A stretch of 57,756 nt of DNA from Escherichia phage vB_EcoS_PJ16. The stretch lies in sequence record OQ955832.1. The stretch is one strand, 5' to 3'. Below the pieces are notes generated by a model. That model was not told the DNA's origin, did no database searches, and saw only the letters and a list, made by a program, of their open reading frames with translations. This document shows positions 13,979 to 53,136 of this stretch, in pieces (the stretch's first letter is position 1; each line of letters begins with the position of its first letter). The position numbers were made by a program, and so were the translations under genes.

Positions 13979-14010
13979 TGTTTGATTCCTCAGTGTGTTT
14001 CGTTCGTGAC

Positions 14011-14058
14011 AAATGTTAGTGTTACTGCTTGCAATGTGTCAAGAATTATTTTAAACTT
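14011..14058 (-). promoter_or_regulatory. sigma70-type promoter with UP element (conserved family)
   Basis: -35 TTGACA (14037-14042), 18-bp spacer, -10 TAACAT (14013-14018). Confidence 0.55.
14029..14057 (+). promoter_or_regulatory. Putative divergent plus-strand promoter overlapping the minus-strand element
   Basis: TTGCAA-17 bp-TAAACT on plus strand; same arrangement recurs at 44612. Confidence 0.35.
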
Positions 14059-14085
14059 CTGTCAACGTTAACCAATGAGGAATAA

Positions 14086-14745
14086 ATGATGCGTAACTTT
14101 AACTGGAGTGAAGCACCTAACTGGGCTACATGTGTTGTTAAACCGAAAATTAAAGAACTCAGTGATGATTATCACTGGTCAGAAGAACCCTGTGCATCTG
14201 CACGCGTGATGAGAATTGAAACAGGTATTGGATTTACAATGAACTGTGAAAATTTCTGGGAAATCGTTGAAAAACGCCCTGTAGGTTCACCACGGGATGT
14301 AACGGTTACTCGTGTTAACGACGACCAGTTAGTCAAATATGGTTATACTATTCATACCAATGATAAAATAGCAAAATATGAACAACCATCAACAGTAACC
14401 CGTGCGTCTAGACCAACACCACCGTCAAATTGTCGGTGTACATTCACCCCTGTTCAACAACCATCAACAGCGTCTGACTTGCTGAAACAGGCTGAACAGC
14501 TACTGACAGAACGTGGTAAGCAGTACGACACGTCTGGTCAGGAACGTTCGTCAGCTAAAATCGTTGCTGCGTTTAACGCAATTACCGGGCGCGACTTAAC
14601 ACCGGGTGAAGGGTGGTTGTTTCTGATGTTGTTAAAAGCGGTTCGTTTCTATTCCAATACTGAAACACCACATCGTGACAGTCTGGAAGACCTGATCAGC
14701 TATGCTGCATTACATGCAGAGGAATATCTTAACGATGAACGGTGA
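14086..14745 (+). CDS. Hypothetical protein (219 aa)
   Basis: Track ORF; Cys-containing N-terminal half, helical C-terminal half. Confidence 0.5.
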   Translation: MMRNFNWSEAPNWATCVVKPKIKELSDDYHWSEEPCASARVMRIETGIGFTMNCENFWEIVEKRPVGSPRDVTVTRVNDDQLVKYGYTIHTNDKIAKYEQPSTVTRASRPTPPSNCRCTFTPVQQPSTASDLLKQAEQLLTERGKQYDTSGQERSSAKIVAAFNAITGRDLTPGEGWLFLMLLKAVRFYSNTETPHRDSLEDLISYAALHAEEYLNDER

Positions 14746-14917
14746 ACAAGCATTCGACCTTCTGGTTAAATACGACATTATTGTTATTCACTGTGACCGT
14801 GAACAAATCGTTTTCACAGACGATCTTCGTTATGAAGAACCTTATGACGGTGATAAACGGTCTGCCACGATTCGGTTAATCGAACGTGTGGCACGTGACA
14901 GAGGGGAACTATTATAA
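14735..14917 (+). CDS. Hypothetical protein (60 aa)
   Basis: Track ORF 14702-14917 trimmed to ATG 14735. Confidence 0.4.
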   Translation: MNGEQAFDLLVKYDIIVIHCDREQIVFTDDLRYEEPYDGDKRSATIRLIERVARDRGELL

Positions 14918-15111
14918 TGGTTCAAACTATTTCTGAATTACTACCCACCGTTTATGGCAACGTGACAGAACTTGCCAGGCGGATTGGGTGTAACAAAGCG
15001 ACAGTTTATAAATATATGGATGACACCAACGGTGAATTTCACGCAGTGGTGAATGGTAAGTTGATGGTCAGACCCGGTTTTAAAGGACGTTATAATCGTG
15101 ACAAAAGATGA
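14917..15111 (+). CDS. Hypothetical protein (64 aa)
   Basis: Track ORF. Confidence 0.4.
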   Translation: MVQTISELLPTVYGNVTELARRIGCNKATVYKYMDDTNGEFHAVVNGKLMVRPGFKGRYNRDKR

Positions 15112-15245
15112 AAAATTATTACGTGAACTTGAAATAGACTACGAACGAGCACAAAAAGCGTTACAGTTTCTGGAAGAACAGATCCGCGAAGTTAAGAATC
15201 GCATTCAGGGAACTGAAAAACGTAATCTTCCACGCCCGTAACACG

Positions 15246-15254
15246 TGATATAAT
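15246..15254 (+). promoter_or_regulatory. Extended -10 element TGATATAAT (putative late promoter)
   Basis: TGnTATAAT with no clear -35, immediately upstream of hairpin and head gene. Confidence 0.4.
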
Positions 15255-15256
15255 CG

Positions 15257-15283
15257 GCCTCAGTGTGTTAACTGAGGCTTTTT
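15257..15283 (+). terminator. Hairpin plus T5 (terminator and/or RBS-sequestering leader)
   Basis: Stem gcctcag/ctgaggc; right arm contains the GAGG SD of the 15284 gene. Confidence 0.5.
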
Positions 15284-16243
15284 ATGGCTACTAAAGACCC
15301 ATACCCGGATATTTCAGACAAGTATGACGCTCGCATTCGCGAAGCACTTGACGTTGTGTGGGAAAACGTGCGTCGTAGTGAGTCGTTAGCCAACCTGGAA
15401 TACATCATTGAAACTCAGGGTATTGCCGGATTACTCCCCATTCTTGAAACACTCCCTGATGAACTTAGTGCACAGTTGCGCCCGGTTATTGAAGATGCGA
15501 TCGCCGAATCAGGTCGTGTAGTCGTTCAGGTTTTACCGAAAGCGGCTGTAACAGGTCCGGTTGTGTTTAGTCTGGTCACCCCACAGGTCAGCACATATAT
15601 CAACAACTATGTCGGACAACTGATCCGTGAAGTCAGTGACGAAACAGTCAAAGCTGTTCAGATTGCTGTTAACCAGGGTGTGGTAACCGGACGAAATCCG
15701 CGTCAGATAGCCCGTGATTTTCGATCGTCAATAGGGTTAACCACACGGCAGGAAATGACGGTTCAACGTCTGCGATCAGCACTGGAAAAAGGTGAAGCAG
15801 GTTATGTGAACAGTCTGACCACTGTTACAGACAGTGGGAAGAACGCTGTAAGTGCCGGGAAACTATCACAGGCGAAGATTGACCAGATAATCGAACAGAC
15901 ACGCTTGCGTTACGTAAAACAGCGTACAGAGACAATAGCGCGTACTGAATCACTTCGTGCTGTATCAGTTGGTCAGGATCAGGCAATACGTCAGGGACAG
16001 ATTACCGGGGCTATTAGTAATGAATTGCTGAAGCGCTGGTTATACAGAAAGGATGGTCGGACACGTGATGCGCATATTTCCACGGGTGAAACGAATGGCT
16101 GGATACCAATGAACAGACCGTTTTCAACGCCGTTAGGACCACTTATGTTTCCTCGTGATCCTAACGGTAGTGCAGCGAATGTGATTAATTGCCGTTGCCG
16201 GGTACAGTACAGTTTGCCGGAAGATATAGGTTCGTTGGGTTAA
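15284..16243 (+). CDS. Head morphogenesis protein (Mu F / SPP1 gp7-like, putative)
   Basis: 319 aa; position after portal; C-terminal region resembles minor head protein family. Confidence 0.55.
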   Translation: MATKDPYPDISDKYDARIREALDVVWENVRRSESLANLEYIIETQGIAGLLPILETLPDELSAQLRPVIEDAIAESGRVVVQVLPKAAVTGPVVFSLVTPQVSTYINNYVGQLIREVSDETVKAVQIAVNQGVVTGRNPRQIARDFRSSIGLTTRQEMTVQRLRSALEKGEAGYVNSLTTVTDSGKNAVSAGKLSQAKIDQIIEQTRLRYVKQRTETIARTESLRAVSVGQDQAIRQGQITGAISNELLKRWLYRKDGRTRDAHISTGETNGWIPMNRPFSTPLGPLMFPRDPNGSAANVINCRCRVQYSLPEDIGSLG

Positions 16244-17592: not shown

Positions 17593-17880
17593 ACAGCTAA
17601 TACAGAACGTGTACTAACTGCACATATTTCTACATAGGTTTCATGATTTTGAGTTGCAGCTAATACAGAACGTGTATTAGTAGATCATAGATTCATAGAT
17701 TTCGTCATGTTTATTTTTTAACCAACCTCTCTCTATCTTATTCTTTTTATTATCTTTTTATAATAAAAAGATAATAAACATAATAAACATAGATAAATAG
17801 AAGAGTAGTATAAGTAGTATAAGTTGCTGCAAGTAGGAGAGGTTTAAAAGGTATAGGGAGTCGCATACTTCCCATGAATC
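17581..17880. repeat. AT-rich non-coding repeat hub B
   Basis: No ORFs; direct repeats cagctaatacagaacgtgta x2, catagat repeats; homologous to window-end/start region. Confidence 0.65.
17746..17778. repeat. Perfect palindrome (16-bp arms, 1-nt centre)
   Basis: tttttattatctttttat a ataaaaagataataaaa read directly; core TTATCT...AGATAA also present at window junction. Confidence 0.8.
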
Positions 17881-21403: not shown

Positions 21404-21423
21404 TAACAACTGTGGTATTATTA

Positions 21424-21451
21424 AGGGGTGGCTTATGCTGCCCCTTTTTTT
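21424..21451 (+). terminator. Rho-independent terminator
   Basis: GC stem ggggtggc...gctgcccc then T7. Confidence 0.65.
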
Positions 21452-21466
21452 CATGAGGTTAAAATC

Positions 21467-31480: not shown

Positions 31481-34001
31481 AGTCATCTATCACACTAATC
31501 CTGTTGAACACGCTGATAACGTTGACTTTGGTGAATGGATGCTGAAACGCTGGCCCGTGGGTACTGTTCGCCCGCGTGGGTTACTGATTTATAAAAACGA
31601 CGAAAACATTACCCAGAAATGGGTCACTGACCCCAGCGTATTAACTGATCCTGATGCTGTTTATCACATTTATGAATTACCAAAAGGTGGGGTGATTAGT
31701 GCAATAACGAAAGTTATTAGCACAATTCTAAACCCCATTTTAAAATTGTTCATGCCGAATACCAGTGCGTCGGCTAATCTTAAGAACTCACGTTCAGCGT
31801 CGTCTAACAACGCGCTTCAGGGGCGTACCAACGCTTCACGACCGGGTGAACGTATTTCTGATATCCGTGGTCGTGTACTGGCATATCCTGATCTGTTAAT
31901 GGACTACCGAATCTTTATTGACCGAACAGAATATGAAGTTCAGTTCCTGTGTCTGGGCGCTGGTGAATACGAAGTCGAAGACGTTCGTGACGGTATTACA
32001 CCTGCGGTAAATATAAGTGGTGAAAAATTAGACTTTTATAAAAAAGGTAATGCACCAGGGTATGGTTCTCCATATATGAATATCGGTGGTGCAATTGATA
32101 TTAACACTTTTCCGATCATGGTTGCTAAGTCATCGAACGAAGCAGACGGATCTGAAGTTAAGCCACCAAACTATGCTGATATTAGTAAAGCAAGTTTTAA
32201 AATTTACAGCACAGGTGAAATTGATACTACGATTTCCAGCGATGATAACACTACTATTGACTGGTCGGAACGTGCACCAATCGGTAGTAAAATACGTTTA
32301 TCGCAATTTTACAGTTTTACACCTAATACTTTACCGTTAAACACGTATGTACGTAATGACCTGTCCGGTGATTACGATGTTATTTATGCAGGTGAGAATA
32401 CGTTAATCATTGATACTAATGGTCGTGATGGTTGGGATGCTCTGTCTGAAAGTGGTCAGGCTGCGTATACACAGGCTTACTTGCGAAATGACGGTTACTG
32501 GGAATTTGAAACCACTGAAGGAAGTGGAAGTTTTTTATACAAATTTTCACCATCTCTTGACAGCACTATGCCGTATATTGTCGGACCTTATCTGATCGAT
32601 AGTGCGGATAAGCTGATGATCAACCTTTATGCACAGAATGGTGTGTATAAAACTGATGGTGATATTTATCCGTTTACCTGTGACTTCCAGGTAGTCTTGT
32701 CAGACCCGAACGGTGTAAAAGCGAATGTGACACACTCTATGTCTGTCAGTGGTCGCTATACAGAAGCTGTAGGCAGTTCATTAATTGTGGATAATCCTTT
32801 TGACGGTCCTGTCAATGTGTCTGTAAGACGACTGTCAAACACAGATAAAGATTTCGAAGGGTCTGTTGTTGACAACATCAAGTGGCGCGATTTATACGCT
32901 ATAACGAACGTTTCTCCGCGTTCCTATGGTGATGTGACATTGATTCATACAGTGACAAAAGCAACAAACGCGGCACTGAAACAAAAAGAACGTAAATTAA
33001 ACATGATTGCAACACGCGTGTATAACGATGTTGCAAGTAGTAATTTTGCAGATGTTGTAATGTCAATGCACACAGATCCTTTATTTGGTCGTCGCACATT
33101 GGACACTATTGATCGCGATGCTTTATATGCTGTTCAGGAACAACTTCTTGAATATTTTGGTGACCAACGAGCAATTGAAGTTGGCTATACGTTTGATAAT
33201 AACAGTACGACGTACGAAGAAGGATTGGACACTATCTGTAACACGGTGAATGTTAAACCGTATCAGATCGGTAGTGTATTGTATTTCTGGCCTGAATTAC
33301 CGCAAGACCAGTCTGCAATGCAGTTTGGTCATGCGTTTAAAATTCCTGACAGTGATAAACGCACACGTTCTTTTGCACCACCTAAAGAATATACTGGTGT
33401 TCAGGTTAAATATTTCGACCACGATGAAAAATCATATTTATATGTTACTAAAGGCGAAGAAACAAACCTTAATAAAATAGACCTTGTTGCATGTCAGTCG
33501 CGATACCTTGCAAACATCCGTGCTAATCGTGAGATGAATAAATTACGTTACCAGCGTATTACTCACGAGTGCACAGCACTTAGTATCGGGTTACAGGCTA
33601 CCCCGGGTATGCGTGTGGATATGATTGACAATACCCGTATGAAACAACACGAAGGTGTTGTTGTCGATGTTGACGGTTTAACACTTATTCTCAGCGATCC
33701 TGTTACATTCACCACGGGTAATACATACAGCATAACGTTAACACACCGACTGGGAACACTTGAAAACATTCCTGTAACTGCCGGGGATGATGAATTTTCA
33801 GTGGTAATGGCTTATCAACCATCTGAAGAAATTTACACGGGGTGGTTGCGTGACCGTACCGCATACGTGATCCGTACTGATGATGAAAGAAGTAAATTAG
33901 CAATGCTTGTTCAGAACATGGAACCGTCAGGAAGGGATAATAACTATCAGGTAGGTTTAACGTGCATCAATTACGATGCACGTTATTATCAGGATGATTA
34001 A
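31473..34001 (+). CDS. Tail tip / host specificity protein (I/J-like)
   Basis: 842 aa; last gene of tail module. Confidence 0.55.
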   Translation: MSKVIYHTNPVEHADNVDFGEWMLKRWPVGTVRPRGLLIYKNDENITQKWVTDPSVLTDPDAVYHIYELPKGGVISAITKVISTILNPILKLFMPNTSASANLKNSRSASSNNALQGRTNASRPGERISDIRGRVLAYPDLLMDYRIFIDRTEYEVQFLCLGAGEYEVEDVRDGITPAVNISGEKLDFYKKGNAPGYGSPYMNIGGAIDINTFPIMVAKSSNEADGSEVKPPNYADISKASFKIYSTGEIDTTISSDDNTTIDWSERAPIGSKIRLSQFYSFTPNTLPLNTYVRNDLSGDYDVIYAGENTLIIDTNGRDGWDALSESGQAAYTQAYLRNDGYWEFETTEGSGSFLYKFSPSLDSTMPYIVGPYLIDSADKLMINLYAQNGVYKTDGDIYPFTCDFQVVLSDPNGVKANVTHSMSVSGRYTEAVGSSLIVDNPFDGPVNVSVRRLSNTDKDFEGSVVDNIKWRDLYAITNVSPRSYGDVTLIHTVTKATNAALKQKERKLNMIATRVYNDVASSNFADVVMSMHTDPLFGRRTLDTIDRDALYAVQEQLLEYFGDQRAIEVGYTFDNNSTTYEEGLDTICNTVNVKPYQIGSVLYFWPELPQDQSAMQFGHAFKIPDSDKRTRSFAPPKEYTGVQVKYFDHDEKSYLYVTKGEETNLNKIDLVACQSRYLANIRANREMNKLRYQRITHECTALSIGLQATPGMRVDMIDNTRMKQHEGVVVDVDGLTLILSDPVTFTTGNTYSITLTHRLGTLENIPVTAGDDEFSVVMAYQPSEEIYTGWLRDRTAYVIRTDDERSKLAMLVQNMEPSGRDNNYQVGLTCINYDARYYQDD

Positions 34002-36037
34002 ATCAATCCATAAATGGCATTGTGTATTACGACACCCCCAACAACAGAGGAAACATTGAAATTAATTTCAGCTTTGTAAGCTCCTGGTGGAACACAATCT
34101 ACCAAAGCATAAAAATTGAACGTGCCTCCTGCTGAGATGTTATATCCCATGGAGTCCGCGACAGCATTTCCTTGTTGGTCAAGGAACCTAAGTGACGCCA
34201 GGGTGGTTGTTGTATTTTTAGCCCAAAAACCAAGCTGAAAATAACGACCTGGCTCACAATCAATGATTGTTTGGGTGAAATTAGCTGCTGCGTCAGATGA
34301 TGGTACAGATAAAACAAAAGAAGTTGAAAACATTAAATCATTAGGAACATCGTTTGTTGTAGTAGCAGTGACAACTCCTGTTCCAGTTTGCGAGAGTGTC
34401 CAGTTAGATATGTTTAAAAACTGTCCTGAGCCATTACTGATGCTATTAATATAAGGGCTTACAATGCTCCCTAAATTCCAGTTACTTGTGATAAATCCTG
34501 CCCGTGGATAGCACCCTCTGGACATTACTTTTTTGCTCGCGCCACCTATCAACTGTCTTGTGGGAAATCCGGTAGCAATCGTTGTATTCCCATAGAGGGG
34601 TAACGAGCAATTATTTAGGCTAACAACCCCATCGCCGTTGCTAACAATAGGTACACTGGTATACCCGTCTGGGAGTAGTATCGTCGAATTACTGACGGTT
34701 AATCGTGAACTGCCATCCACAGTAAACCCAACGAAACTCTGACCAGGTTGGTACTCAATGTTACCGTTTGTGAAAACCACTGTTGCGTTATCTGATAACG
34801 CAACAGTAGGGTCAAAATATCCTGATTTTTTACCTGCCGGTAGAGAGCAGCTATCGAATATAAATTGACCATTAACAAACGTGAAAGGTCCACCGTTGTC
34901 AACCATCCAGCAGTGATTAAATTTTATAACCTCACCGGAATTCGCTGGTGAATTGAAAATAGCAGAATTTGTAAAACTTCTGGACAACGCGCATTTATCA
35001 AAAAGAATACGATATGCATTATCAAGAAACTCAATTCCGGCAGTTGAGATAAACCCACTATTAGATATTCTTAACTCTGATACTACACCACTGGTAGAGC
35101 CACCGATAGCCAATTTCCTGGAACCTTTTCCGACGAATGACACACCACTCATCAAAGCAGTTGCGTTAACTGCATCTCTGTTAATGTAATCCGCGCCTGT
35201 ATTAATAATGGTTAGGTAGTAGTCACCGGTTACAGATGCAGTTTCTGTTAAAGTACATTTATTTTTTCCAATAAGTGCGCCTTTTGCTATGTCGAAAATA
35301 ATCGGTGTTGTTATCTCACCAGAAACAGGAACCACACAGTCAAATCCGGCAGCGTTTATTTTGTTGATGAATACCGCCAAATCTTCGGTTCCAGTATAAC
35401 CAGCATCATACACGTCCACGGTGCCGTTGAAGAATTTTCTTTTCCATACCACACCGTTTCCGGGGAAGGTAACAATATTGTCTACAGTAGTAGTCGCGCT
35501 AACAGCTACCATAATACCACCACCAAAATTAAACCCGCTCACATACGAATCAAGAATTATGGAATCACCAATTGATCCTGATATCGATGATAACTCAGAA
35601 ACTGATGATACAGTCCCTATATAAGACAAACCATTTGATTTGTTTAAATCAGAACGTAACATTAAATCCGTCTGATTAACCCAGTGTGTAGCATCAATAC
35701 CACCCGTAGTTGCAGGTGTTGAACCAGGTGGAACAATTTTAGGCAACATACCCATCCACTGGTAATAATTACCTTCTGATTCATATAGTAGTGTTTCCCA
35801 ACGATGGTTAATAGTACTACCGCCTTCAAACGAACCGTCTGCAGGTTTAAAACCAACTGAACTAAAAAAACCATCCAGTGTTTTGTTAGTAACTGATTCG
35901 CCACGGATTGTATCGGTTGCTTCCAGTGCAGGTTTACCGGTAGCGTCACGACTTTTTGCAACGTGTTCAATATGTAAAATCGCTTGTTTGCCTGTTTTCA
36001 AATCATCAGCACTGATATAATCGTTACAGTTAGCCAT
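33998..36037 (-). CDS. Tailspike / receptor-binding protein with beta-helix-like repeats
   Basis: Track ORF 33998-36064 trimmed to ATG 36037 (GGAG RBS); Gly/Ser/Thr/Asn-rich repetitive beta-strand pattern. Confidence 0.6.
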   Translation of the reverse strand: MANCNDYISADDLKTGKQAILHIEHVAKSRDATGKPALEATDTIRGESVTNKTLDGFFSSVGFKPADGSFEGGSTINHRWETLLYESEGNYYQWMGMLPKIVPPGSTPATTGGIDATHWVNQTDLMLRSDLNKSNGLSYIGTVSSVSELSSISGSIGDSIILDSYVSGFNFGGGIMVAVSATTTVDNIVTFPGNGVVWKRKFFNGTVDVYDAGYTGTEDLAVFINKINAAGFDCVVPVSGEITTPIIFDIAKGALIGKNKCTLTETASVTGDYYLTIINTGADYINRDAVNATALMSGVSFVGKGSRKLAIGGSTSGVVSELRISNSGFISTAGIEFLDNAYRILFDKCALSRSFTNSAIFNSPANSGEVIKFNHCWMVDNGGPFTFVNGQFIFDSCSLPAGKKSGYFDPTVALSDNATVVFTNGNIEYQPGQSFVGFTVDGSSRLTVSNSTILLPDGYTSVPIVSNGDGVVSLNNCSLPLYGNTTIATGFPTRQLIGGASKKVMSRGCYPRAGFITSNWNLGSIVSPYINSISNGSGQFLNISNWTLSQTGTGVVTATTTNDVPNDLMFSTSFVLSVPSSDAAANFTQTIIDCEPGRYFQLGFWAKNTTTTLASLRFLDQQGNAVADSMGYNISAGGTFNFYALVDCVPPGAYKAEINFNVSSVVGGVVIHNAIYGLI
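36013..36021 (+). promoter_or_regulatory. Extended -10 element TGATATAAT (putative late promoter for lysis cassette)
   Basis: Third copy of TGATATAAY motif, 43 nt upstream of 36064 ATG, embedded in tailspike 5' end. Confidence 0.35.
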
Positions 36038-36063
36038 CTTTAAGTCTCCAGGAGTGTAGAACA

Positions 36064-36387
36064 ATGTCTGATAACCCAGTGTTGAGGTATTGGCCTATAA
36101 TAGCATTTGTTGCCACGGGGTTGGTAGGTTACGGGGTAACTCAAAACCAAATCAATTCTAATGAAAAAGATATTGCAGATGCAAAAACCTATGCGCATGA
36201 GGCGCTTAATCTGGCAAAGCGAGTGGAATCCCGAGTGGATGTCCACGACATCAAAATCGAATATCAGGCAACACAGAACGCTGAAATCCTCACCAGTGTT
36301 AAAGAGCTAACACAGTCAACAAATGACCTGAAAGTTGTTATTGAAGGTTTGAAAGCGGAACAACGTAAAACCGGGAGTAAGCAATGA
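36064..36387 (+). CDS. Membrane protein with N-terminal TM helix and coiled coil (lysis-associated, putative)
   Basis: 107 aa; AGGAG RBS; first gene of lysis cassette. Confidence 0.5.
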   Translation: MSDNPVLRYWPIIAFVATGLVGYGVTQNQINSNEKDIADAKTYAHEALNLAKRVESRVDVHDIKIEYQATQNAEILTSVKELTQSTNDLKVVIEGLKAEQRKTGSKQ

Positions 36388-44676: not shown

Positions 44677-47355
44677 GTGAGTCAACAACCACTTCGTTAT
44701 TACCAACAAGATGCAGTTAACAACGTGCGCCAGGCATGGTCGAACGGTGCTAATGACGTGATTCTTGTGCTTCCCACTGGCTGTCATGCTAAAGACAGTG
44801 AAATTCTTATGTACAACGGTGATGTTATAAAAGTACAGGATGTTTTACCTGGTGATTTATTGATGGGTCGTGATTCATTACCACGAACCGTGTTAGCGTT
44901 AGCTCGTGGCAGAGAAGAAATGTTTGAAATCATCCCAGTCAAAGGGTCACCTTTCCGTGTAAATAAAAATCACATATTACATTTGATACATACTGAATCA
45001 AAAGAAGAAATAGACATTTCTGTAAGTGATTACTTACAGAAATCAAATTATTTCAAACATTGCCACAAGTTGCTTCGTACGGGGGTTGATTTCGAATATC
45101 GCGAACCACCGACTTTAGACCCGTGGTTTGCCGGGATTATGATCGGTGATGGTAGTTACAAATCAGGTACACCACGTCTGACAAATGCAGACTCAAGTAT
45201 TTTAGAAAAGGCTACTTTTTACGCAAACCTTTTTGGATGTGTCTGCAAAGATGTAAAAGGTAACAACTGTGTTACACGTTATTTCGGTTATCCCGGGTCA
45301 TCGCGTTCGGTTAGTAACCCGTTGAGCGATGCGATGAAATCTGATGGATTGTGGGGGAAAATCGCACATGAAAAATCAATACCTGATGTGTATAAAAAAG
45401 GAAGCAGAAACACACGTTTAAACGTTCTGGCAGGATTAATTGATAGCGACGGATATATTTCACATAAGGGCGTTGATTTTGTGTCCAAATCACAGCAGTT
45501 AGCCGCTGATTTAGTGTTCGTTGCAAGAAGCCTGGGGAAAGCCGCGTATTACAAAGCCTGTGTTAAATCATGTCAAACGGGTAATGCAAACATTTACTAC
45601 AGAGTGAGTATTAGTGGCGATTTAAGCGATGTACCATTCGTTAGAAAACATGGTGATTTAACGAGAAAGCAGAAGAAAAATCATTTAGTAACGGGCTTTT
45701 CTGTTCGGTCTGTTGGTGAAGATAATTTTTATGGTTTTATGGTTAACGGTGACAATCTTTATCTTACGTCAGACTTCATCATCCATCATAACAGTGGTAA
45801 AACACGTACTATGGCTGAACTACTAAAATCCGACGGTGTAAAAGTCATCCAGGCACACCGCAAAGAACTAGTTAGTCAAATCGCAATGGCTGTTGCTCGC
45901 CAGGGGTTAGCACACAGATTTATAGCGCAAAAAGATACTGTTAAGTTTGCAACTAATCAGCAGATGAAAACGCTTGGTTACAGTACCTATTCCCCCGGTG
46001 CTGACATCGTTATTACCAGTTCACAAACGTTAAGAACAAAACAGTACGAACGATGGTACAACGACGTGTCTCTTGTATTCAGCGACGAAGCGCATCACCT
46101 GGTGCGTGGCACACAGTGGGGAGACTGCCGGGAAAAATTCCCTAACGCTAAAGGTCTGGGTGTTACAGCCACACCGATCCGTGCTGACGGTAAAGGCCTG
46201 GGTCGTCATGCATCAGGTTACGCAGATCAGATGATCATTGGTCCGTCAATGCGTGAATTAATCAGTCAACAACACCTGGCTGATTATCGTCTGATCATGG
46301 CTGAAACAGACCTGGAATTAACCGCAGAAATGATTTCTCATACGACGGGTGATTACAAACCATCTGCGTTAAAAAAAGCGATGGAAGATTCAAACATTGT
46401 TGGTGATACCGTTAGTACGTGGAAAACGTATGCAGATGGTTTACTCACTGTTGTGTTTACGTGTGATGTGGATTCTGCTGAAGCACTTGCAAAAGAATTT
46501 CGCGATGCTGGCATTCCTGCAGAGGCGATCAGTTCACGAAACAGTAATCAGGAACGAGCGGATATTCTGGAACGTTTTGAACGACGTAAAACACTCGTGC
46601 TATGTAACAACGATTTATTCGGTGAAGGATACGACTGTCCGGCAATGGAATGTGCAGTAATGGATCGCCCCACAGAATCTTACTCTTTGTTTGTACAACA
46701 AATGGGTCGACCATTGCGTTTCAAACCCGGTAAAAAAGCACTGATTATTGATAAAGTCGGTAATGTTCGTCGATTTCTGGCCCGTGGTTTTCCACTTCCT
46801 GATCAGCATTACAACTGGTCTTTAGATGACCGTGACCGTCGTTCATCTAACAGCAGTGGGAACAGTAATACAACATGTACAAACAAGGGTGATCCTGATA
46901 ATGGTATTCCACCGTGTCTGAAGCCTTATCCGTCTGGTCTTCCGTGCTGCCCGTATTGTGGTCATGTTCCTGAAAAAGCCGAACGCTCAGGCCCGGATCG
47001 TGTAGAAGGTAATTTACGTGAACTGACACCTGAAGAACTGGAAGAATTACGCCGGGCAGTGGTGATAATCGACCGTGACCCTGTTGCAGTAAAAGAACAA
47101 ATGTTAAACGCGGGTGCACCCCCTGTTGCAGCTTACAGTGCAATGAAAAACATTCAGGCAATGAACGATGCACAGCGTAAGTTACGCAGCATGATCACCA
47201 CATGGGCAGGTATTCAGCGTGATAAAGGTATACCCGTTGATGACGCTTACAAGATGTTTTACAGGGTGTTTGGTGTTGATGTACTTAGTGCACAGGGCTT
47301 ACGTACTCGTGAAGCTAATGAACTCGCCGCAAGGGTTGCAAGTTCATTAATCTGA
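44677..47355 (+). CDS. SF2 DEAH-type DNA helicase, intein-containing precursor
   Basis: GTG start with AAGGA RBS; Walker A split as LPTG / SGKT by intein; DEAHH, TATP, QQMGRPLR motifs; C-terminal CxxC zinc ribbon. Confidence 0.85.
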   Translation: MSQQPLRYYQQDAVNNVRQAWSNGANDVILVLPTGCHAKDSEILMYNGDVIKVQDVLPGDLLMGRDSLPRTVLALARGREEMFEIIPVKGSPFRVNKNHILHLIHTESKEEIDISVSDYLQKSNYFKHCHKLLRTGVDFEYREPPTLDPWFAGIMIGDGSYKSGTPRLTNADSSILEKATFYANLFGCVCKDVKGNNCVTRYFGYPGSSRSVSNPLSDAMKSDGLWGKIAHEKSIPDVYKKGSRNTRLNVLAGLIDSDGYISHKGVDFVSKSQQLAADLVFVARSLGKAAYYKACVKSCQTGNANIYYRVSISGDLSDVPFVRKHGDLTRKQKKNHLVTGFSVRSVGEDNFYGFMVNGDNLYLTSDFIIHHNSGKTRTMAELLKSDGVKVIQAHRKELVSQIAMAVARQGLAHRFIAQKDTVKFATNQQMKTLGYSTYSPGADIVITSSQTLRTKQYERWYNDVSLVFSDEAHHLVRGTQWGDCREKFPNAKGLGVTATPIRADGKGLGRHASGYADQMIIGPSMRELISQQHLADYRLIMAETDLELTAEMISHTTGDYKPSALKKAMEDSNIVGDTVSTWKTYADGLLTVVFTCDVDSAEALAKEFRDAGIPAEAISSRNSNQERADILERFERRKTLVLCNNDLFGEGYDCPAMECAVMDRPTESYSLFVQQMGRPLRFKPGKKALIIDKVGNVRRFLARGFPLPDQHYNWSLDDRDRRSSNSSGNSNTTCTNKGDPDNGIPPCLKPYPSGLPCCPYCGHVPEKAERSGPDRVEGNLRELTPEELEELRRAVVIIDRDPVAVKEQMLNAGAPPVAAYSAMKNIQAMNDAQRKLRSMITTWAGIQRDKGIPVDDAYKMFYRVFGVDVLSAQGLRTREANELAARVASSLI
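44782..45792 (+). mobile_element. Intein with double-LAGLIDADG homing endonuclease in helicase P-loop
   Basis: Begins with Cys after LPTG, ends HN before Ser; LAGLIDSDG and FAGIMIGDG motifs; 337 codons in frame. Confidence 0.8.
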
Positions 47356-48163: not shown

Positions 48164-50518
48164 ATGAAAGGGTTACTGAACCGTAAACAGTGGGTCATGT
48201 GGCGGCTTGAGACAGTCGCCGATCGTCCAAAACCAACAAAAGTACCATATAGCCCGGTACACGGTTATAAAGCCAGTACCACTAACCCTAACGACTGGTC
48301 TGACTATCACACCGCGTTAGGTATGGCGCAAATGTACGGTATGTCCGGCGTTGGTTTTGTATTCACAGAAAATGACCCTTATTTCTTTATCGATGTTGAT
48401 AACTGTCTGGTAGATCAGGCAACAGCTACGTGGTCACCTCTGGCGCATGAATTCGTAAACCGTTTCCCAAATGCTTACACTGAAGTAAGTCAGTCAGGAA
48501 CAGGTTTACATATCATCTGTGCTTATACCAGCATGCCGGAAGGTTTTAACAGTCTGAACGACCAGAAAACCGGGTTGGAAATGTACTGGCGTGATCGTTT
48601 CGTCGCGATGACGCTCACGGGGAATGGTGATGTTGATATTGATTATACCCAGGGCATTCATGATTCTATTGCCCGGTATGGTCGTATCCGTTCAGACCGT
48701 TCCGCACGCTGGACAACAGCACCCTGTGATGACTGGTCAGGTCCGACAGACGACGATGAACTGATTAAAATGGCGTTAAATTCGTCCAGTGCTGCTTCAG
48801 TATTTGGCAATAAAGCGTCATTTGCGGATCTGTGGAATGCAAACGTTGAACGCCTGTCTGTGTCATATCCCAGCGACCAGGGAAAAGACTACAATGCATC
48901 TGCCGCTGATGCTGCCCTGTGTTCACACCTTGCATTCTGGACTGGGAAAGATTGCGAACGCATTGAACGGTTGTTTAACCGTTCCGGGCTGGTTCGTGGT
49001 AAATGGACAGATCGTCAGGATTACCGTGAAAACACAATTCTGGGCGCTGTGGAACGTTGTGATACTGTGTATCGTAGTCAACCGACACTGACACCAGAAC
49101 TGATGAAAGCAGTCACACCAGCGCCTACCATCGTTCCTAACGGTGGAACACCTGCGTACATGAGTGTGAAACCCGGTGAAGGTGCATATGGTTCAAACCA
49201 CACAGTTAACGCATCCACTTTCGTTAATAACTATTATCCGAACAACACATTGATTTTCGTCCAGCAACAGCCGTACCGGTTTAACGGTCGTGTATGGGAA
49301 CGTGTGAGTGAAGATGAACTGAAACATCAGATATCTATGGCAATGCTCGCCAGCGAACCAAAAGCTGACGTGATTAATGGTACGTACAAGGTATTGTCGT
49401 ATTTATTCACACGGGCTGATCGTGAGCTTGGAACATGGCCCGGCGTTGATGTGTCACACTACATTGTATGTCAGAATGGGATACTGGATGTACACACGGG
49501 TAAATGTGATGCACACAACCCGGATTTCTTTACAACCAGTATTTTACCGTATAGCTACGATCCGTTTGCCCGTGCACCAGCGTTTGAACAGTTTCTTAAT
49601 ACAACTCTGGAAGGTGATCAGGAACGTATCGCACTGTTGCAGGAATGGCTGGGTTACATGCTTGTCAACTCGTATGACTATCAGAAAGCGATGCTGTTGA
49701 TTGGTGCACCACGTTCCGGTAAAGGTACGATTGGTCGCATCATTCAGGCACTGGTAGGTGATGAAGCGTATGCAGGGATCACACTAGAGGGTTTAGCCAG
49801 TGATGCGGTACTTGAAACTGTGCTGGATAAATCTGTGCTGTTTATTGGTGATGCTCACAGTGTGTCCGGGCCTGATCGCAACCGAATTCTGGACCGTTTC
49901 AAATCTATTACAGGTTGTGATGCGATTCCGGTTAATCGTAAGTATAAAGGTGCATGGAACGGTCGTTTACCTGGACGTATGACACTGGCTGCTAACAACA
50001 TACCGGCATTTGCTGATGATTCAGGTGCAATGGCTAACCGTTTACTGATCCTACCATTCAACATTTCGTTCCTGGGTCGTGAAGATACCACTCTGGAAGC
50101 ACGACTGATGAAAGAACTACCTGGGATCTGTAACTGGGCGATTGAAGGTTTACAACGGTTACGTGCAAACGGACGGTTTACTGAACCAAAAGCAAGTCTG
50201 GAAGAACGTCAGGAAATTATGGACCAACAATCACCACTTAGAAGTTTTATCAGAGATTGTTGCGAATTGGTATCTGATGGTGAGGTGCACACTGAAGAAC
50301 TCTATGGTCGTTATCGTCTCTGGAAAACACAGGAAGGTGGTCCAGCAATGACTAAAACTGCATTTAGTCGGGCGTTTAAATCCACCCTTCGTGGTAAAGT
50401 GAAAAAAGACGTTGTTAATATAAATAACGTTCGACTAAACGGTTTCAGGGGTATTCGTCTTCTCCCTTTTCAGTCAACAGCTAATATAGTGCCTTTCCCA
50501 CCTGCGAGTAATGGTTAG
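48164..50518 (+). CDS. Primase-polymerase / P4-D5-type helicase
   Basis: 784 aa; N-terminal prim-pol-like region (FIDVD), C-terminal Walker A GAPRSGKGT. Confidence 0.75.
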   Translation: MKGLLNRKQWVMWRLETVADRPKPTKVPYSPVHGYKASTTNPNDWSDYHTALGMAQMYGMSGVGFVFTENDPYFFIDVDNCLVDQATATWSPLAHEFVNRFPNAYTEVSQSGTGLHIICAYTSMPEGFNSLNDQKTGLEMYWRDRFVAMTLTGNGDVDIDYTQGIHDSIARYGRIRSDRSARWTTAPCDDWSGPTDDDELIKMALNSSSAASVFGNKASFADLWNANVERLSVSYPSDQGKDYNASAADAALCSHLAFWTGKDCERIERLFNRSGLVRGKWTDRQDYRENTILGAVERCDTVYRSQPTLTPELMKAVTPAPTIVPNGGTPAYMSVKPGEGAYGSNHTVNASTFVNNYYPNNTLIFVQQQPYRFNGRVWERVSEDELKHQISMAMLASEPKADVINGTYKVLSYLFTRADRELGTWPGVDVSHYIVCQNGILDVHTGKCDAHNPDFFTTSILPYSYDPFARAPAFEQFLNTTLEGDQERIALLQEWLGYMLVNSYDYQKAMLLIGAPRSGKGTIGRIIQALVGDEAYAGITLEGLASDAVLETVLDKSVLFIGDAHSVSGPDRNRILDRFKSITGCDAIPVNRKYKGAWNGRLPGRMTLAANNIPAFADDSGAMANRLLILPFNISFLGREDTTLEARLMKELPGICNWAIEGLQRLRANGRFTEPKASLEERQEIMDQQSPLRSFIRDCCELVSDGEVHTEELYGRYRLWKTQEGGPAMTKTAFSRAFKSTLRGKVKKDVVNINNVRLNGFRGIRLLPFQSTANIVPFPPASNG

Positions 50519-50529
50519 TCGTTGCACAA

Positions 50530-50577
50530 GGACGTGTAAAATAATTCTTGACGAATTACAGATATGTGCGCTATAGT
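50530..50577 (+). promoter_or_regulatory. sigma70-type promoter with UP element (conserved family)
   Basis: TAAAATAATTCTTGACGAATTACA; -35 50548-50553, -10 TATAGT 50572-50577. Confidence 0.55.
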
Positions 50578-51905: not shown

Positions 51906-52297
51906 TAATAGTCGTTACAGGCGGTCGTGACTTCAACGACAGAACAGCGGTATTTTCAGCATTAGGGTTACTTCACAAACAATTCCCGGTTACCGAACTG
52001 ATTGAAGGCGGTGCATCAGGTGTTGATAACCTGTGTAAGCAATGGGCGCAATTACACGGTATTCCTGTACGTAGTTGCCCGGCAGCATGGGACGATCTGA
52101 CTGTACCAGGTGCGGTTGTAAAACAGGGTAAGCATGGGCCTTATAACGCTGTTGCAGGTCATCAACGTAATCAGGCAATGTTAGAGGGTGAACCACGCCC
52201 TACATACGGTGTTGTGTTCCCCGGTGGGCGTGGTACTGCCGACATGCATCGTCGTATGTTGAAAGCTGGTTTAACTGTGTGGGTTCCATATCCTTAA
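51902..52297 (+). CDS. SLOG/LOG-like Rossmann-fold protein (DUF2493-like)
   Basis: VVTGGRDF, GGASGVD and PGGRGTADM motifs. Confidence 0.5.
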   Translation: MIIVVTGGRDFNDRTAVFSALGLLHKQFPVTELIEGGASGVDNLCKQWAQLHGIPVRSCPAAWDDLTVPGAVVKQGKHGPYNAVAGHQRNQAMLEGEPRPTYGVVFPGGRGTADMHRRMLKAGLTVWVPYP

Positions 52298-52334
52298 AAT
52301 AATTCTTGACAGATTACCAACCTCCCCCGATAAT
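52290..52334 (+). promoter_or_regulatory. sigma70-type promoter with UP element (conserved family)
   Basis: TAAAATAATTCTTGACAGATTACC; -35 52306-52311, 17-bp spacer, -10 GATAAT 52329-52334. Confidence 0.6.
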
Positions 52335-52357
52335 TAGCCTCAGTTAACACACATGAG
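52335..52357 (+). promoter_or_regulatory. 5' leader hairpin overlapping SD (inverted version of hairpin at 15257)
   Basis: Stem gcctcag/gaggc; right arm contains GAGG SD of the 52369 gene. Confidence 0.45.
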
Positions 52358-52368
52358 GCTAAACACAA

Positions 52369-53136
52369 ATGGCTAACATTAACTCCCTTCGCAAGCTGTC
52401 TGATACCGATAAAACCAACGTAAAACGTGGTAATGCGTATCGTATTGATCCGCGTATTATCAAGATTCGTCCAGGACATAACCCACGCGGTGTGTTTACC
52501 GACAACTACTGGGAAACTGAAGCAGCACTGGCACACATTGAAAACTTTCGTCAGGCTTATACTAACGGCGATTTCGTTCCACCCATCGTGGTACAGGTTG
52601 TTGACGGTGTTCCGTATGTCCAGGATGGTGAGCATCGTTTACGTGGTGTATTGGCAGCTATTGACGCCGGGACGCCGATTCTGACAGTAGACGTTGTTGA
52701 ATCGTCCGGTGACGAACTACAACAGACCCTGACACTGTTAAAAGGTAATGAAGGTAAACCGTGGTCCCCTGTTGAACGTGCTGTTATTTACGGTCGTTTC
52801 CGTTCATATGGCATGAGTGTTGAGCAGATCGCTACACAGGTCGGTAAAACCGTTCAGCACGTTTACGAACAACTGAATATTCTTGATATGCCGCTGGAAC
52901 TTAAACGTCGTATTCAGAACGGCGAAATCAGCGCGTCAGCAGCCATTCGCCAGTTTAAAGCAGGTGATAAAGAACCAGTAGTAACGCGTCGTCCGCCTGC
53001 TAAACTGGTACGGTCTGCAGTGGAAGCAATCCGTGGTGAATGGTCTGTAACCCGTTCGGAAGGTGGTAAAGTCCTGGTTGAACTTACCGCTGAACAGTTT
53101 GAAGCGTTAAAAGCACTGAAGGAGCACCAGTTATGA
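52369..53136 (+). CDS. ParB-like nuclease domain protein
   Basis: KIRPGHNPRG and DGEHRLRGVLAA resemble ParB/sulfiredoxin N-domain motifs. Confidence 0.65.
   Translation: MANINSLRKLSDTDKTNVKRGNAYRIDPRIIKIRPGHNPRGVFTDNYWETEAALAHIENFRQAYTNGDFVPPIVVQVVDGVPYVQDGEHRLRGVLAAIDAGTPILTVDVVESSGDELQQTLTLLKGNEGKPWSPVERAVIYGRFRSYGMSVEQIATQVGKTVQHVYEQLNILDMPLELKRRIQNGEISASAAIRQFKAGDKEPVVTRRPPAKLVRSAVEAIRGEWSVTRSEGGKVLVELTAEQFEALKALKEHQL

What the first reader, a model, noticed from the sequence alone, without database searches (positions are those of the whole stretch)
15244..15283. Conserved GCCTCAG hairpin sequestering the SD of two unrelated genes, in opposite loop orientation
Upstream of the head morphogenesis gene (15257-15278) and of the ParB-like gene (52335-52357) a -10-like GATA(T)AAT is followed by hairpins with identical stems (gcctcag / ctgaggc) but reverse-complemented loops, then ATGGCTA. 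The right arm includes the GAGG SD. Stem conservation with loop inversion suggests selection for structure (translational control or a processing site) or for a palindromic protein-binding site.
Basis: seen in the sequence. Interest (0 to 1): 0.5.

Follow-up and report, generated by a model that had tools for sequence, protein, structure and literature searches.

The report
Promoter-embedded ribosome-site hairpins in 9NA-like phage

Summary
The window is a complete 9NA-like siphophage genome. Both hairpins are real and are the only two copies in the genome. The description needs two corrections.

- **Arms:** the right arm of site 2 is ATGAGGC, not CTGAGGC.
- **Loops:** the "inverted loop" exists only in the E. 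coli-infecting clade. In Salmonella and Klebsiella relatives the site-1 loop has the same orientation as the site-2 loop.

Each hairpin starts exactly 2 nt after a -10 hexamer.

- **Site 1:** a perfect extended -10, TGaTATAAT. This site also has a T-run and is annotated as a terminator in phage Sasha.
- **Site 2:** TTGACA-17-GATAAT, the best sigma-70 match in the window.

The expected transcription start therefore falls inside the 5' arm. In modelled read-through RNA the Shine-Dalgarno GAGG is fully paired. In RNA started at the local promoter it is largely free.

My best reading (about 0.45) is a T4 lysozyme-type, promoter-bypassed, ribosome-site-sequestering hairpin that doubles as a terminator at site 1. 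Nothing here is experimentally shown: there is no compensatory covariation and no mapped transcript ends. A palindromic operator (about 0.2) is not excluded. This is a new member of a known kind, of modest interest.

The parts
15246..15254 (+). Site 1 extended -10 promoter element, TGaTATAAT, with no recognisable -35
   Evidence: Read directly. TGnTAyAAT is kept in all relatives: TGATATAAT, TGGTATAAT or TGATACAAT. It was listed by my own extended -10 scan. The promoter is not experimentally mapped.
15256..15279 (+). Site 1 hairpin GGCCTCAGT / ACTGAGGCT (core 15257-15278), loop GTGTTA. The 3' arm contains the Shine-Dalgarno GAGG at 15274-15277.
   Evidence: hairpin region -20.4 kcal/mol, z -3.8. 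The hairpin alone is -15.9 kcal/mol. The orthologous hairpin is annotated as 'terminator' in Sasha KX987158.
15279..15283 (+). T-run (TTTTT) directly after the site 1 hairpin, then the ATG of the head-morphogenesis (Mu F-like) gene at 15284
   Evidence: terminator-like hit. The T-run is present in 5 of 6 distinct lineages and absent in IMG/VR locus L014, which has GAATC. Pfam Phage_Mu_F for the gene.
15261..15263 (+). Inferred transcription start window of the site 1 promoter (7-9 nt after the -10), inside the 5' arm
   Evidence: Inference from the usual sigma-70 spacing. No transcript data exist. RNA started here leaves GAGG largely unpaired.
52306..52334 (+). Site 2 promoter TTGACA-17-GATAAT, preceded by TAAAATAATTC. 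It belongs to a 12-copy promoter family.
   Evidence: It is the only 11/12 sigma-70 match in the whole window. It is annotated as a promoter in AVIO78A MZ726797.
52334..52362 (+). Site 2 hairpin TTAGCCTCA / TGAGGCTAA (core AGCCTCA/TGAGGCT, 52336-52360), loop GTTAACACACA. The Shine-Dalgarno GAGG is at 52355-52358, and the ATG of the ParB-like gene is at 52369. There is no T-run.
   Evidence: (-14.5 kcal/mol, z -4.6). The gene matches Pfam HTH_ParB and PHROG ParB-like, and has Spo0J/Noc/KorB-family PDB hits.
52341..52343 (+). Inferred transcription start window of the site 2 promoter, inside the 5' arm
   Evidence: Inference from the -10 position. The pairing probabilities are modelled.

Best explanation
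Each site is a compact control cassette: [-10 box] - 2 nt - [5' arm AGCCTCA(G), an anti-Shine-Dalgarno sequence] - [A/C-rich loop] - [3' arm (C/A)TGAGGCT containing the SD GAGG] - spacer - ATG.

RNA that enters from the co-directional upstream genes contains both arms, so it folds the hairpin. At site 1 the hairpin plus T-run acts as an intrinsic terminator. Any RNA that reads through has its ribosome-binding site buried. At site 2 there is no T-run, so only the ribosome-binding site is buried.

RNA polymerase that initiates at the cassette's own promoter starts 7-9 nt after the -10, inside the 5' arm. That RNA lacks the anti-SD arm. It cannot form the hairpin, is not terminated, and is translatable.

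The result is that expression of the first gene after each cassette depends on the local promoter alone. This is the logic shown for T4 genes e, soc, 49 and I-TevI.

**Shown here:** the sequence anatomy, its conservation, the fixed spacing to the -10, and the thermodynamic modelling.

**Inferred:** the transcription start positions, termination, and the translational effect.
For: 1. **Fixed promoter link.** In every phage examined and at both sites, the -10 hexamer is followed by exactly 2 nt and then GCCT(C/T)AG (alignment A1). Site 2 is the best sigma-70 match in the window. Site 1 is a perfect TGnTATAAT, and the TG is kept in relatives.
2. **Only SD in the 3' arm.** GAGG in the 3' arm is the only SD-like motif before either ATG, 6 and 10 nt upstream.
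3. **Modelled accessibility.** SD unpaired probability is 0.00 in read-through RNA for 10 of 10 site/phage combinations. It is 0.08-0.77 in RNA started 7-9 nt after the -10, where total folding energy is only -3 to -10.6 kcal/mol against -24.5 to -40.1.
4. **Read-through is possible.** Both cassettes follow co-directional genes whose stop codons lie 8-15 nt upstream of the promoter elements.
5. **Absence where read-through is impossible.** Proteus and Morganella relatives have the head gene directly after a divergent region. They keep an extended -10-like box but have no such hairpin.
6. **Terminator shape at site 1.** One search finds it, and it is annotated as a terminator in Sasha, Sergei and Solent.
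7. **Changes keep RNA pairing.** The stem changes seen on the sense strand are G.U-compatible: 9NA C>T, the window clade outer A>G, and the L168 CT>TC swap. Loop length varies freely.
8. **Loop looks like a normal leader.** The loop plus 3' arm resembles the ordinary A/C-rich leader of another family promoter. The dUTPase leader is AAACACACTGAGGAAtcaaacaATG. The distinctive addition at site 2 is therefore the anti-SD arm.
9. **Precedent.** T4 e, soc, 49 and I-TevI are reviewed in PMC3014915, section 29.
Against: - There are no transcript 5' or 3' ends for any 9NA-like phage, so the start sites are assumed from consensus spacing.
- There is no compensatory covariation: 0 double changes in 7 pairs across 11 distinct sequences. 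The stems are conserved as sequence, which fits a protein-binding site equally well.
- Two unrelated genes share the same non-SD stem bases and related loops. The model does not require this and must attribute it to common ancestry or conversion.
- At site 2 the local promoter looks strong and of the same early type as the upstream promoter at 50543. The regulatory gain from silencing read-through RNA is therefore unclear.
- In Bas82, SP-062 and KP13-27 the gene after the site-2 hairpin is a different small ORF, so no specific gene product is being protected.
- Other internal promoters of the same family (50543+, 12889-, 3788-) have no hairpin.
- One lineage, L014, lacks the site-1 T-run.
Confidence: 0.45

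Rival explanations
1. **Palindromic operator.** The inverted repeat GCCTCA-N10/11-TGAGGC is a double-stranded DNA site for a dimeric regulator. The regulator could be phage-encoded, for example the ParB/KorB-like HTH protein encoded right after site 2, or host-encoded. Because the site covers about -4 to +20, the bound protein would block initiation or escape at both promoters. This would give autoregulation of the ParB-like operon and co-regulation of the head-morphogenesis gene.
For: - The stems are conserved as sequence with no covariation. The same half-sites occur at two unrelated promoters, and there are only two copies per genome in three diverged genomes.
- The position relative to the -10 is identical at both sites.
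- The element stays with the promoter when the downstream gene changes.
- Orientation of the whole element can flip without loss, as in the E. coli clade.
- Site 2 is the only one of the 12 family promoters with a near-consensus -10, so it is the one most in need of a repressor.
- The adjacent gene encodes a genuine ParB-family HTH protein, whose relatives include the repressor KorB.
Against: - Half-site spacing is not fixed. It is 10 bp at most site-1 orthologues, and 11 bp at Sasha site 1 and at all site-2 copies.
- From general knowledge, ParB-family sites such as parS, NBS and OB are contiguous 13-16-bp palindromes, not half-sites 10-11 bp apart.
- Phage 536P12 has lost residues 29-221 of the ParB-like protein, including the HTH, yet keeps both elements unchanged.
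- Morganella phage Henu15 and Enterobacter phage EcP1 have ParB-like homologues without such a site upstream.
- Under this model, the 3' half-site supplying the only SD at both genes would be a coincidence.
Confidence: 0.2
2. **Ordinary terminator plus an inherited copy.** Site 1 is simply the intrinsic terminator of the small-gene operon 14086-15241. Site 2 is a duplicated or converted copy of the same hairpin. It may serve at most as a 3'-end stabiliser or processing barrier for upstream mRNA. Proximity to the -10 boxes and inclusion of GAGG would then reflect compact phage intergenic regions rather than a dedicated switch.
For: - Site 1 scores as a terminator and is annotated as one.
- The motif AGCCTCAG-N-TGAGGCT occurs in more than 120 unrelated viral contigs, many of them ordinary terminators followed by T-runs and an ATG.
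- A similar layout follows the major capsid gene at 21413-21452: extended -10-like TGgTATTAT, then a GC hairpin, T7 and ATG, with no SD in the arm.
- In the E. coli clade, site 1 matches the reverse complement of site 2 more closely than it matches its own orthologues. This points to conversion between the copies.
Against: - Site 2 has no T-run on either strand in any phage.
- L014 lacks the T-run at site 1 but keeps the hairpin.
- The stems are much more conserved than flanking intergenic bases across E. coli, Salmonella and Klebsiella phages. The site-2 stem shows no change among most lineages and only one single-base exception (phi_KPN_H2, T>C in the 3' arm). The 17-nt promoter spacer shows about 40% change.
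- The exact 2-nt spacing to the -10 at both sites is not explained.
Confidence: 0.2
3. **Promoter-kinetics element.** The conserved 5' arm nnGCCTCAG is a G+C-rich discriminator and initial transcribed sequence. It would tune open-complex stability, for example giving ppGpp/DksA or growth-rate sensitivity as at rRNA promoters. Complementarity to the SD region would be secondary.
For: - The arm sits at a fixed position directly after the -10 at both promoters.
- The other 11 promoters of the family have A/T-rich or mixed discriminators.
- That G+C-rich discriminators mark stringently controlled promoters is my own general knowledge. It was not tested here.
Against: - This does not explain why the 3' arm is a perfect complement at both sites and in all relatives.
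- It does not explain why the whole element tolerates inversion in the E. coli clade.
Confidence: 0.05

Closest known systems
T4 genes e (lysozyme), soc, 49 and I-TevI: RBS-sequestering hairpins bypassed by a promoter lying in the 5' arm (PMC3014915, section 29; McPheeters et al. 1986, cited there)
   Same: - The SD (and partly the AUG) lies in the 3' arm of a stable hairpin.
- Co-directional upstream transcription runs into the gene.
- A promoter sits immediately upstream, so its transcripts lack the 5' arm.
   Different: - The promoters here are host sigma-70 type (an extended -10, and a -35/-10 pair), not T4 late TATAAATA promoters that depend on gp55/gp33.
- At site 1 the same hairpin also has a T-run and so looks like a terminator.
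- The same hairpin sequence is used twice in one genome.
- No transcript or translation data exist for this phage group.
Rho-independent (intrinsic) terminators
   Same: Site 1 has a 9-pair stem (5 G-C pairs), a 6-nt loop and a T5 tail directly after the stop of a co-directional gene. An A-rich -10 region pairs with the T-run.
   Different: - Site 2 has no T-run.
- One site-1 orthologue (L014) lacks the T-run.
- A promoter -10 abuts the stem, and the stem carries the next gene's SD.
Operators overlapping the transcription start (lac O1 type), and ParB-family repressor sites (KorB OB, parS)
   Same: - The element is an inverted repeat covering about -4 to +20 of a strong promoter.
- It lies next to a gene for a ParB/KorB-family HTH protein.
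- It occurs at two promoters per genome.
   Different: - The half-sites are separated by 10-11 variable bp with non-constant spacing, not contiguous 13-16-bp palindromes.
- The sites persist in a phage whose ParB-like HTH is deleted.
- No binding has been shown.

Membership tests
Intrinsic (Rho-independent) terminator | G+C-rich stem-loop downstream of a co-directional gene | tested here: met
   Site 1 has 9 pairs (5 G-C), 15 nt after the stop at 15241. Site 2 has 9 pairs (4 G-C), 37 nt after the stop at 52297.
Intrinsic (Rho-independent) terminator | Run of T (U) immediately 3' of the stem | tested here: inconclusive
   Site 1 meets this with TTTTT, and the run is kept in 5 of 6 lineages. Site 2 does not meet it on either strand in any phage. 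Only site 1 can be filed here.
Intrinsic (Rho-independent) terminator | Transcript 3' ends at the T-run | not testable with these tools
   No Term-seq or in vitro transcription data were found for 9NA-like phages.
T4 e-type promoter-bypassed RBS-sequestering hairpin | SD and/or AUG paired in the 3' arm of a stable hairpin in upstream-initiated RNA | tested here: met
   GAGG unpaired probability is 0.00 in modelled read-through RNA for all 10 site/phage combinations. Hairpin z-scores are -3.8 and -4.6.
T4 e-type promoter-bypassed RBS-sequestering hairpin | A promoter whose transcripts start within or after the 5' arm | tested here: inconclusive
   Strong consensus -10 elements lie exactly 2 nt before the 5' arm at both sites and in all relatives. 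The start positions are inferred from spacing only and have not been mapped.
T4 e-type promoter-bypassed RBS-sequestering hairpin | Translation low from long transcripts and high from promoter-proximal transcripts | not testable with these tools
   This needs reporter or toeprint experiments.
Dimeric-repressor operator (including ParB/KorB-type sites) | Inverted half-sites at a fixed centre-to-centre distance | tested here: not met
   The spacer between GCCTCA and TGAGGC is 10 bp in five site-1 lineages. It is 11 bp in Sasha site 1 and in all site-2 copies.
Dimeric-repressor operator (including ParB/KorB-type sites) | Overlap with core promoter or transcription start | tested here: met
   The element begins 2 nt after the -10 at both sites.
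Dimeric-repressor operator (including ParB/KorB-type sites) | A cognate DNA-binding protein whose presence tracks the site | tested here: inconclusive
   A ParB-family HTH protein is encoded next to site 2. However, 536P12 lacks its HTH and keeps both sites, and Henu15 and EcP1 have homologues without the site. No binding data exist.
Structured RNA element supported by covariation / Rfam family | Compensatory base changes, or a match to a curated covariance model | tested here: not met
   There are 0 pairs with changes on both sides; two pairs show G.U changes, and the two terminal pairs each have one unpaired cell. No Rfam match was found anywhere in the window.

The most novel reading that the evidence does not exclude
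The two palindromes are a dedicated two-site regulon. A phage DNA-binding protein, possibly the adjacent ParB/KorB-like protein, would recognise them on DNA. The same sequence would act on RNA as an SD-sequestering or terminator hairpin. One 23-nt element would then couple transcriptional repression of two sigma-70 promoters with translational insulation, timing a head-assembly gene and an early operon in a phage group whose gene-expression programme is unstudied.
Probability: 0.12. Interest if true: 0.55.

Novelty: new member of a known kind. Interest (0 to 1): 0.3.

Why it matters
The gene-expression programme of 9NA-like phages (Nonanavirus, Sashavirus, Carvajevirus) has not been studied; the 9NA genome note says its molecular lifestyle is uncharacterised.

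If the model is right, these cassettes show how such phages uncouple a virion-assembly gene and an early operon from the many small interspersed gene blocks. They would do so using only host sigma-70 promoters and a hairpin. That would extend the T4 lysozyme principle beyond T4 late promoters.

The cassette is also compact and portable. It combines terminator, promoter and translational insulator in about 45 nt, which could be useful in synthetic biology.

If the operator reading is right instead, it would point to a two-promoter regulon. Either way this is an incremental finding, not a new class.

Tried and rejected
1. **Scan of IMG/VR for AGCCTCAG-N6-12-TGAGGCT**. It returned more than 120 contigs, but my own estimate is that chance alone gives hundreds of hits at that collection size, and almost all are unrelated terminators. 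It was uninformative, apart from two contigs (L053, L059) where TGnTATAAT directly abuts the same hairpin. I did not pursue these.
2. **Search for intermediate relatives to obtain covariation.** I used the search for related loci in viral and metagenome contigs and tblastn in phages. This found only close relatives with the same stems, or distant ones (Proteus, Morganella, Enterobacter, Vibrio phages) without the hairpin.
3. **An apparent compensatory pair flanking site 2.** The window has T-A, 9NA has T.G and the Klebsiella phages have C-G. I rejected it because SP-062 has C/A. All four combinations therefore occur, which means no constraint.
4. **A 5'-terminal stabilising hairpin or a lambda nut/boxB-like antitermination site.** I rejected both because the -10 lies only 2 nt from the stem, so local transcripts cannot contain the 5' arm.
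5. **An RNase III site.** I rejected it because the stems are only 7-9 bp.
6. **Host operators recalled from memory** (LexA CTGT-N8-ACAG, CRP TGTGA-N6-TCACA, the TrpR CTAG sites around GTTAAC). None fits, and the central GTTAAC is not conserved in the Klebsiella phages.
7. **Rfam.** There was no hit in the window.
8. **The main comparative paper on this group** (Zeng et al. 2019, J Virol, PMC6819911) is not held. I could not check whether these promoters or hairpins are described there.

Full report
**What the window is.**
The 57.8-kb window is a complete or near-complete genome of a 9NA-like siphophage. It is 95-98% identical over the regions compared to Escherichia phages PDP46, AVIO78A and KarinMuster_Bas82. 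It is about 80% identical to Salmonella phages 9NA, Sasha and SP069 and to Klebsiella phages such as Carvaje. The 9NA genome note states that the molecular lifestyle of this group is unstudied, and that many small genes are interspersed among the virion genes.

**Checking the observation.**
- Site 1 reads TGATATAAT-cg-GCCTCAG-TGTGTTAA-CTGAGGC-TTTTT-ATG (15246-15286). It lies 15 nt after the stop of a 47-codon ORF and directly before the Mu F-like head-morphogenesis gene.
- Site 2 reads TTGACA-17-GATAAT-ta-GCCTCAG-TTAACACACA-TGAGGC-taaacacaa-ATG (52306-52371). It lies before a 255-aa ParB-family HTH protein.
- The relaxed pattern GCCTYA-N4-24-TGAGGC occurs only at these two places. That is 4 strand-hits against 0.14 expected, and no shuffle reached it.
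- Both regions fold much better than shuffled sequence.
  - The right arm of site 2 is ATGAGGC. Its perfect stem is TTAGCCTCA/TGAGGCTAA.
  - The reverse complement of site 2 equals site 1 plus one base, so this is one element in two orientations.
  - The shared ATGGCTA is neither special in this genome nor conserved in relatives.

**Conservation and the "inverted loop".**
I read both sites in the following relatives: AVIO78A, Bas82, 536P12, Sasha, SP069/SP-062, 9NA, Carvaje, VLCpiS10a, KP13-27 and phi_KPN_H2. I also read them in IMG/VR and metagenome contigs.
- Every 9NA-like phage examined from E. coli, Salmonella and Klebsiella has both sites. Three diverged genomes, searched over all or nearly all of their length, have exactly two copies.
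- Site-1 loops outside the E. coli clade are TTACCACGA, TAACCACG, TAATCACG, TAATCACA and TAACTCTA. These have the same orientation as the site-2 loop (TTAACACACA or TTACTACACA).
- Only the E. coli-phage clade has the flipped loop, TGTGTTAA. That loop matches the reverse complement of site 2 in the same genome 8 of 8.
- The inversion is therefore one lineage-specific event. It is either a flip across the stem repeats or a conversion from site 2. It is not a design feature.
- Across 11 distinct sequences, the 7 core pairs show no compensatory change. Two changes are G.U-compatible, and two breaks occur at the terminal pairs.
- A tempting covarying pair just outside site 2 shows all four combinations among lineages. 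It is therefore unconstrained.
- The stems are clearly under purifying selection compared with neighbouring intergenic bases. The data do not say whether selection acts on pairing or on sequence.

- At both sites and in all relatives, the hairpin begins exactly 2 nt after a -10 hexamer.
- Site 1 has a perfect extended -10, TGnTATAAT, and no -35. The TG is retained in every lineage.
- Site 2 is the only 11/12 sigma-70 match in the entire window.
- Site 2 belongs to a family of 12 near-identical promoter-like sites, TAAAATAATTCTTGACnnATTAC (12 against 0.44 expected). This family is also present in Bas82 and Carvaje.
- Within the family, site 2 has the best -10 and is the only member followed by a hairpin.
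- With the usual 7-9-nt distance from the -10 to the start, transcription would begin at about 15261-15263 and 52341-52343. These positions lie inside the 5' arm.

**Consequences for RNA.**
- In modelled read-through RNA (80 nt of upstream sequence) the SD GAGG has unpaired probability 0.00 in all ten site/phage combinations tested.
- In RNA beginning 7-9 nt after the -10, the SD is 0.08-0.77 unpaired. The whole leader then folds with only -3 to -10.6 kcal/mol.
- Site 1 additionally has the shape of an intrinsic terminator. It is annotated as one in Sasha, Sergei and Solent. The T-run is kept in 5 of 6 lineages and absent in IMG/VR L014.
- Site 2 never has a T-run.
- The loop plus 3' arm of site 2 looks like the ordinary A/C-rich leader of this phage's family promoters. 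For comparison, the dUTPase leader is AAACACACTGAGGAAtcaaacaATG. What is special at site 2 is therefore the added anti-SD arm directly after the -10.

**Best explanation.**
- The anatomy matches the arrangement documented for T4 genes e, soc, 49 and I-TevI. In T4, long early transcripts fold a hairpin that hides the ribosome-binding site. Transcripts from a promoter lying in the 5' part of the structure lack that arm and are translated (PMC3014915, section 29).
- Here the promoters are host sigma-70 type, and at site 1 the same hairpin also serves as a terminator.
- Consistent with this, Proteus and Morganella relatives have the head gene directly after a divergent region, so no co-directional read-through can occur. 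They keep an extended -10-like box but have no such hairpin.
- I give this reading about 0.45. The start sites, termination and the translational effect are all inferred.

**Rival explanations.**
- *Palindromic operator, about 0.2.*
  - For: sequence-level conservation; the same half-sites at two promoters; the fixed position over the start site; the neighbouring ParB/KorB-family gene; and the element staying with the promoter when extra genes are inserted before the ParB-like gene in Bas82, SP-062 and KP13-27.
  - Against: half-site spacing varies between 10 and 11 bp, and known ParB-family sites are contiguous palindromes (my own knowledge).
  - Against: phage 536P12 has lost residues 29-221 of the ParB-like protein yet keeps both elements intact. 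The operator model would also make the SD in the 3' arm a coincidence at both genes.
- *Ordinary terminator plus an inherited or converted copy, about 0.2.* This fits the many unrelated AGCCTCAG hairpin terminators in IMG/VR. It does not fit the strong conservation of the T-less site 2 or the exact -10 spacing.
- *G+C-rich discriminator, about 0.05.* This does not explain the complementary 3' arm.

**Novelty and score.**
- The parts are already annotated piecemeal in GenBank: a terminator in Sasha and a promoter in AVIO78A.
- I found no description of the paired cassette. I could not read the main comparative paper on this group, Zeng et al. 2019.
- Mechanistically this is a new member of a known kind. 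A specialist would find it tidy rather than surprising.
- Interest is 0.3.

Noticed in passing
window 1513-, 3788-, 6543+, 10667-, 12889-, 14031-, 17565-, 17893+, 27464-, 44551-, 50543+, 52301+ (17-nt cores; strand given): A family of 12 near-identical promoter-like sites, TAAAAT-AATTCTTGACnnATTAC, found at 12 copies against 0.44 expected by chance. Each precedes a gene block, and most have weak -10 boxes. The family is also present in Bas82 (10 copies in 50 kb) and Carvaje (8 in 50 kb). It is likely the phage's early promoter set.
   Followed up: partly
window 21413-21452: Directly after the major capsid gene stop (21403) there is an extended -10-like TGgTATTAT, then 1 nt, the GC hairpin AAGGGGTGGC/GCTGCCCCTT, a run of T7 and an ATG. 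The layout matches site 1, but there is no SD in the arm.
   Followed up: no
window 44677-47355 (about residues 36-370 of the ORF): The helicase ORF is 892 aa here against 553 aa in Bas82. It carries Hint plus LAGLIDADG homing-endonuclease domains, which indicates an intein inserted in the helicase. A 28-bp palindrome, ATTTCTGTAAGT-gatt-ACTTACAGAAAT (45016-45043), lies inside this insert.
   Followed up: partly
window 34779-34807 and 17746-17778: Two long perfect palindromes. One is ACTGTTGCGTTATC-t-GATAACGCAACAGT, 29 bp, inside the minus-strand ORF 33998-36064. The other is a 33-bp A/T-rich palindrome between the divergent family promoters at 17565- and 17893+. Both are candidate protein-binding or origin-like sites.
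   Followed up: no
L150 (Bas82) 48173-48403; L152 (SP-062) 65-295; L154 (KP13-27) 57-296: Extra small genes are inserted between the site-2 promoter/hairpin and the ParB-like gene. The junctions fall just after the first codons (ATGGCTAA or ATGTCnAAC), which are duplicated at the start of the displaced gene. This suggests module exchange by recombination at gene 5' ends.
   Followed up: partly
L176 (Sashavirus 536P12) 1501-1705: The ParB-like gene has an internal deletion that leaves only residues 1-28 and 222-255, so the HTH is lost. The gene therefore appears dispensable for this isolate.
   Followed up: partly
L053 1309-1353; L059 848-890 (unrelated IMG/VR contigs): TGCTATAAT or TGATATAAT directly abuts an AGCCTCAG...TGAGGCT hairpin, followed by T-rich sequence and an ATG. 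In L053 the downstream ORF starts MLTYKATNKTTGRYYIG, which by eye resembles a GIY-YIG homing endonuclease (no domain search was run). The same cassette idea may therefore be more widespread.
   Followed up: no
window 13979-14085: No convincing sigma-70 promoter is visible on the + strand for the small-gene operon 14086-15241 that runs into site 1. The source of read-through transcription there is unknown.
   Followed up: no
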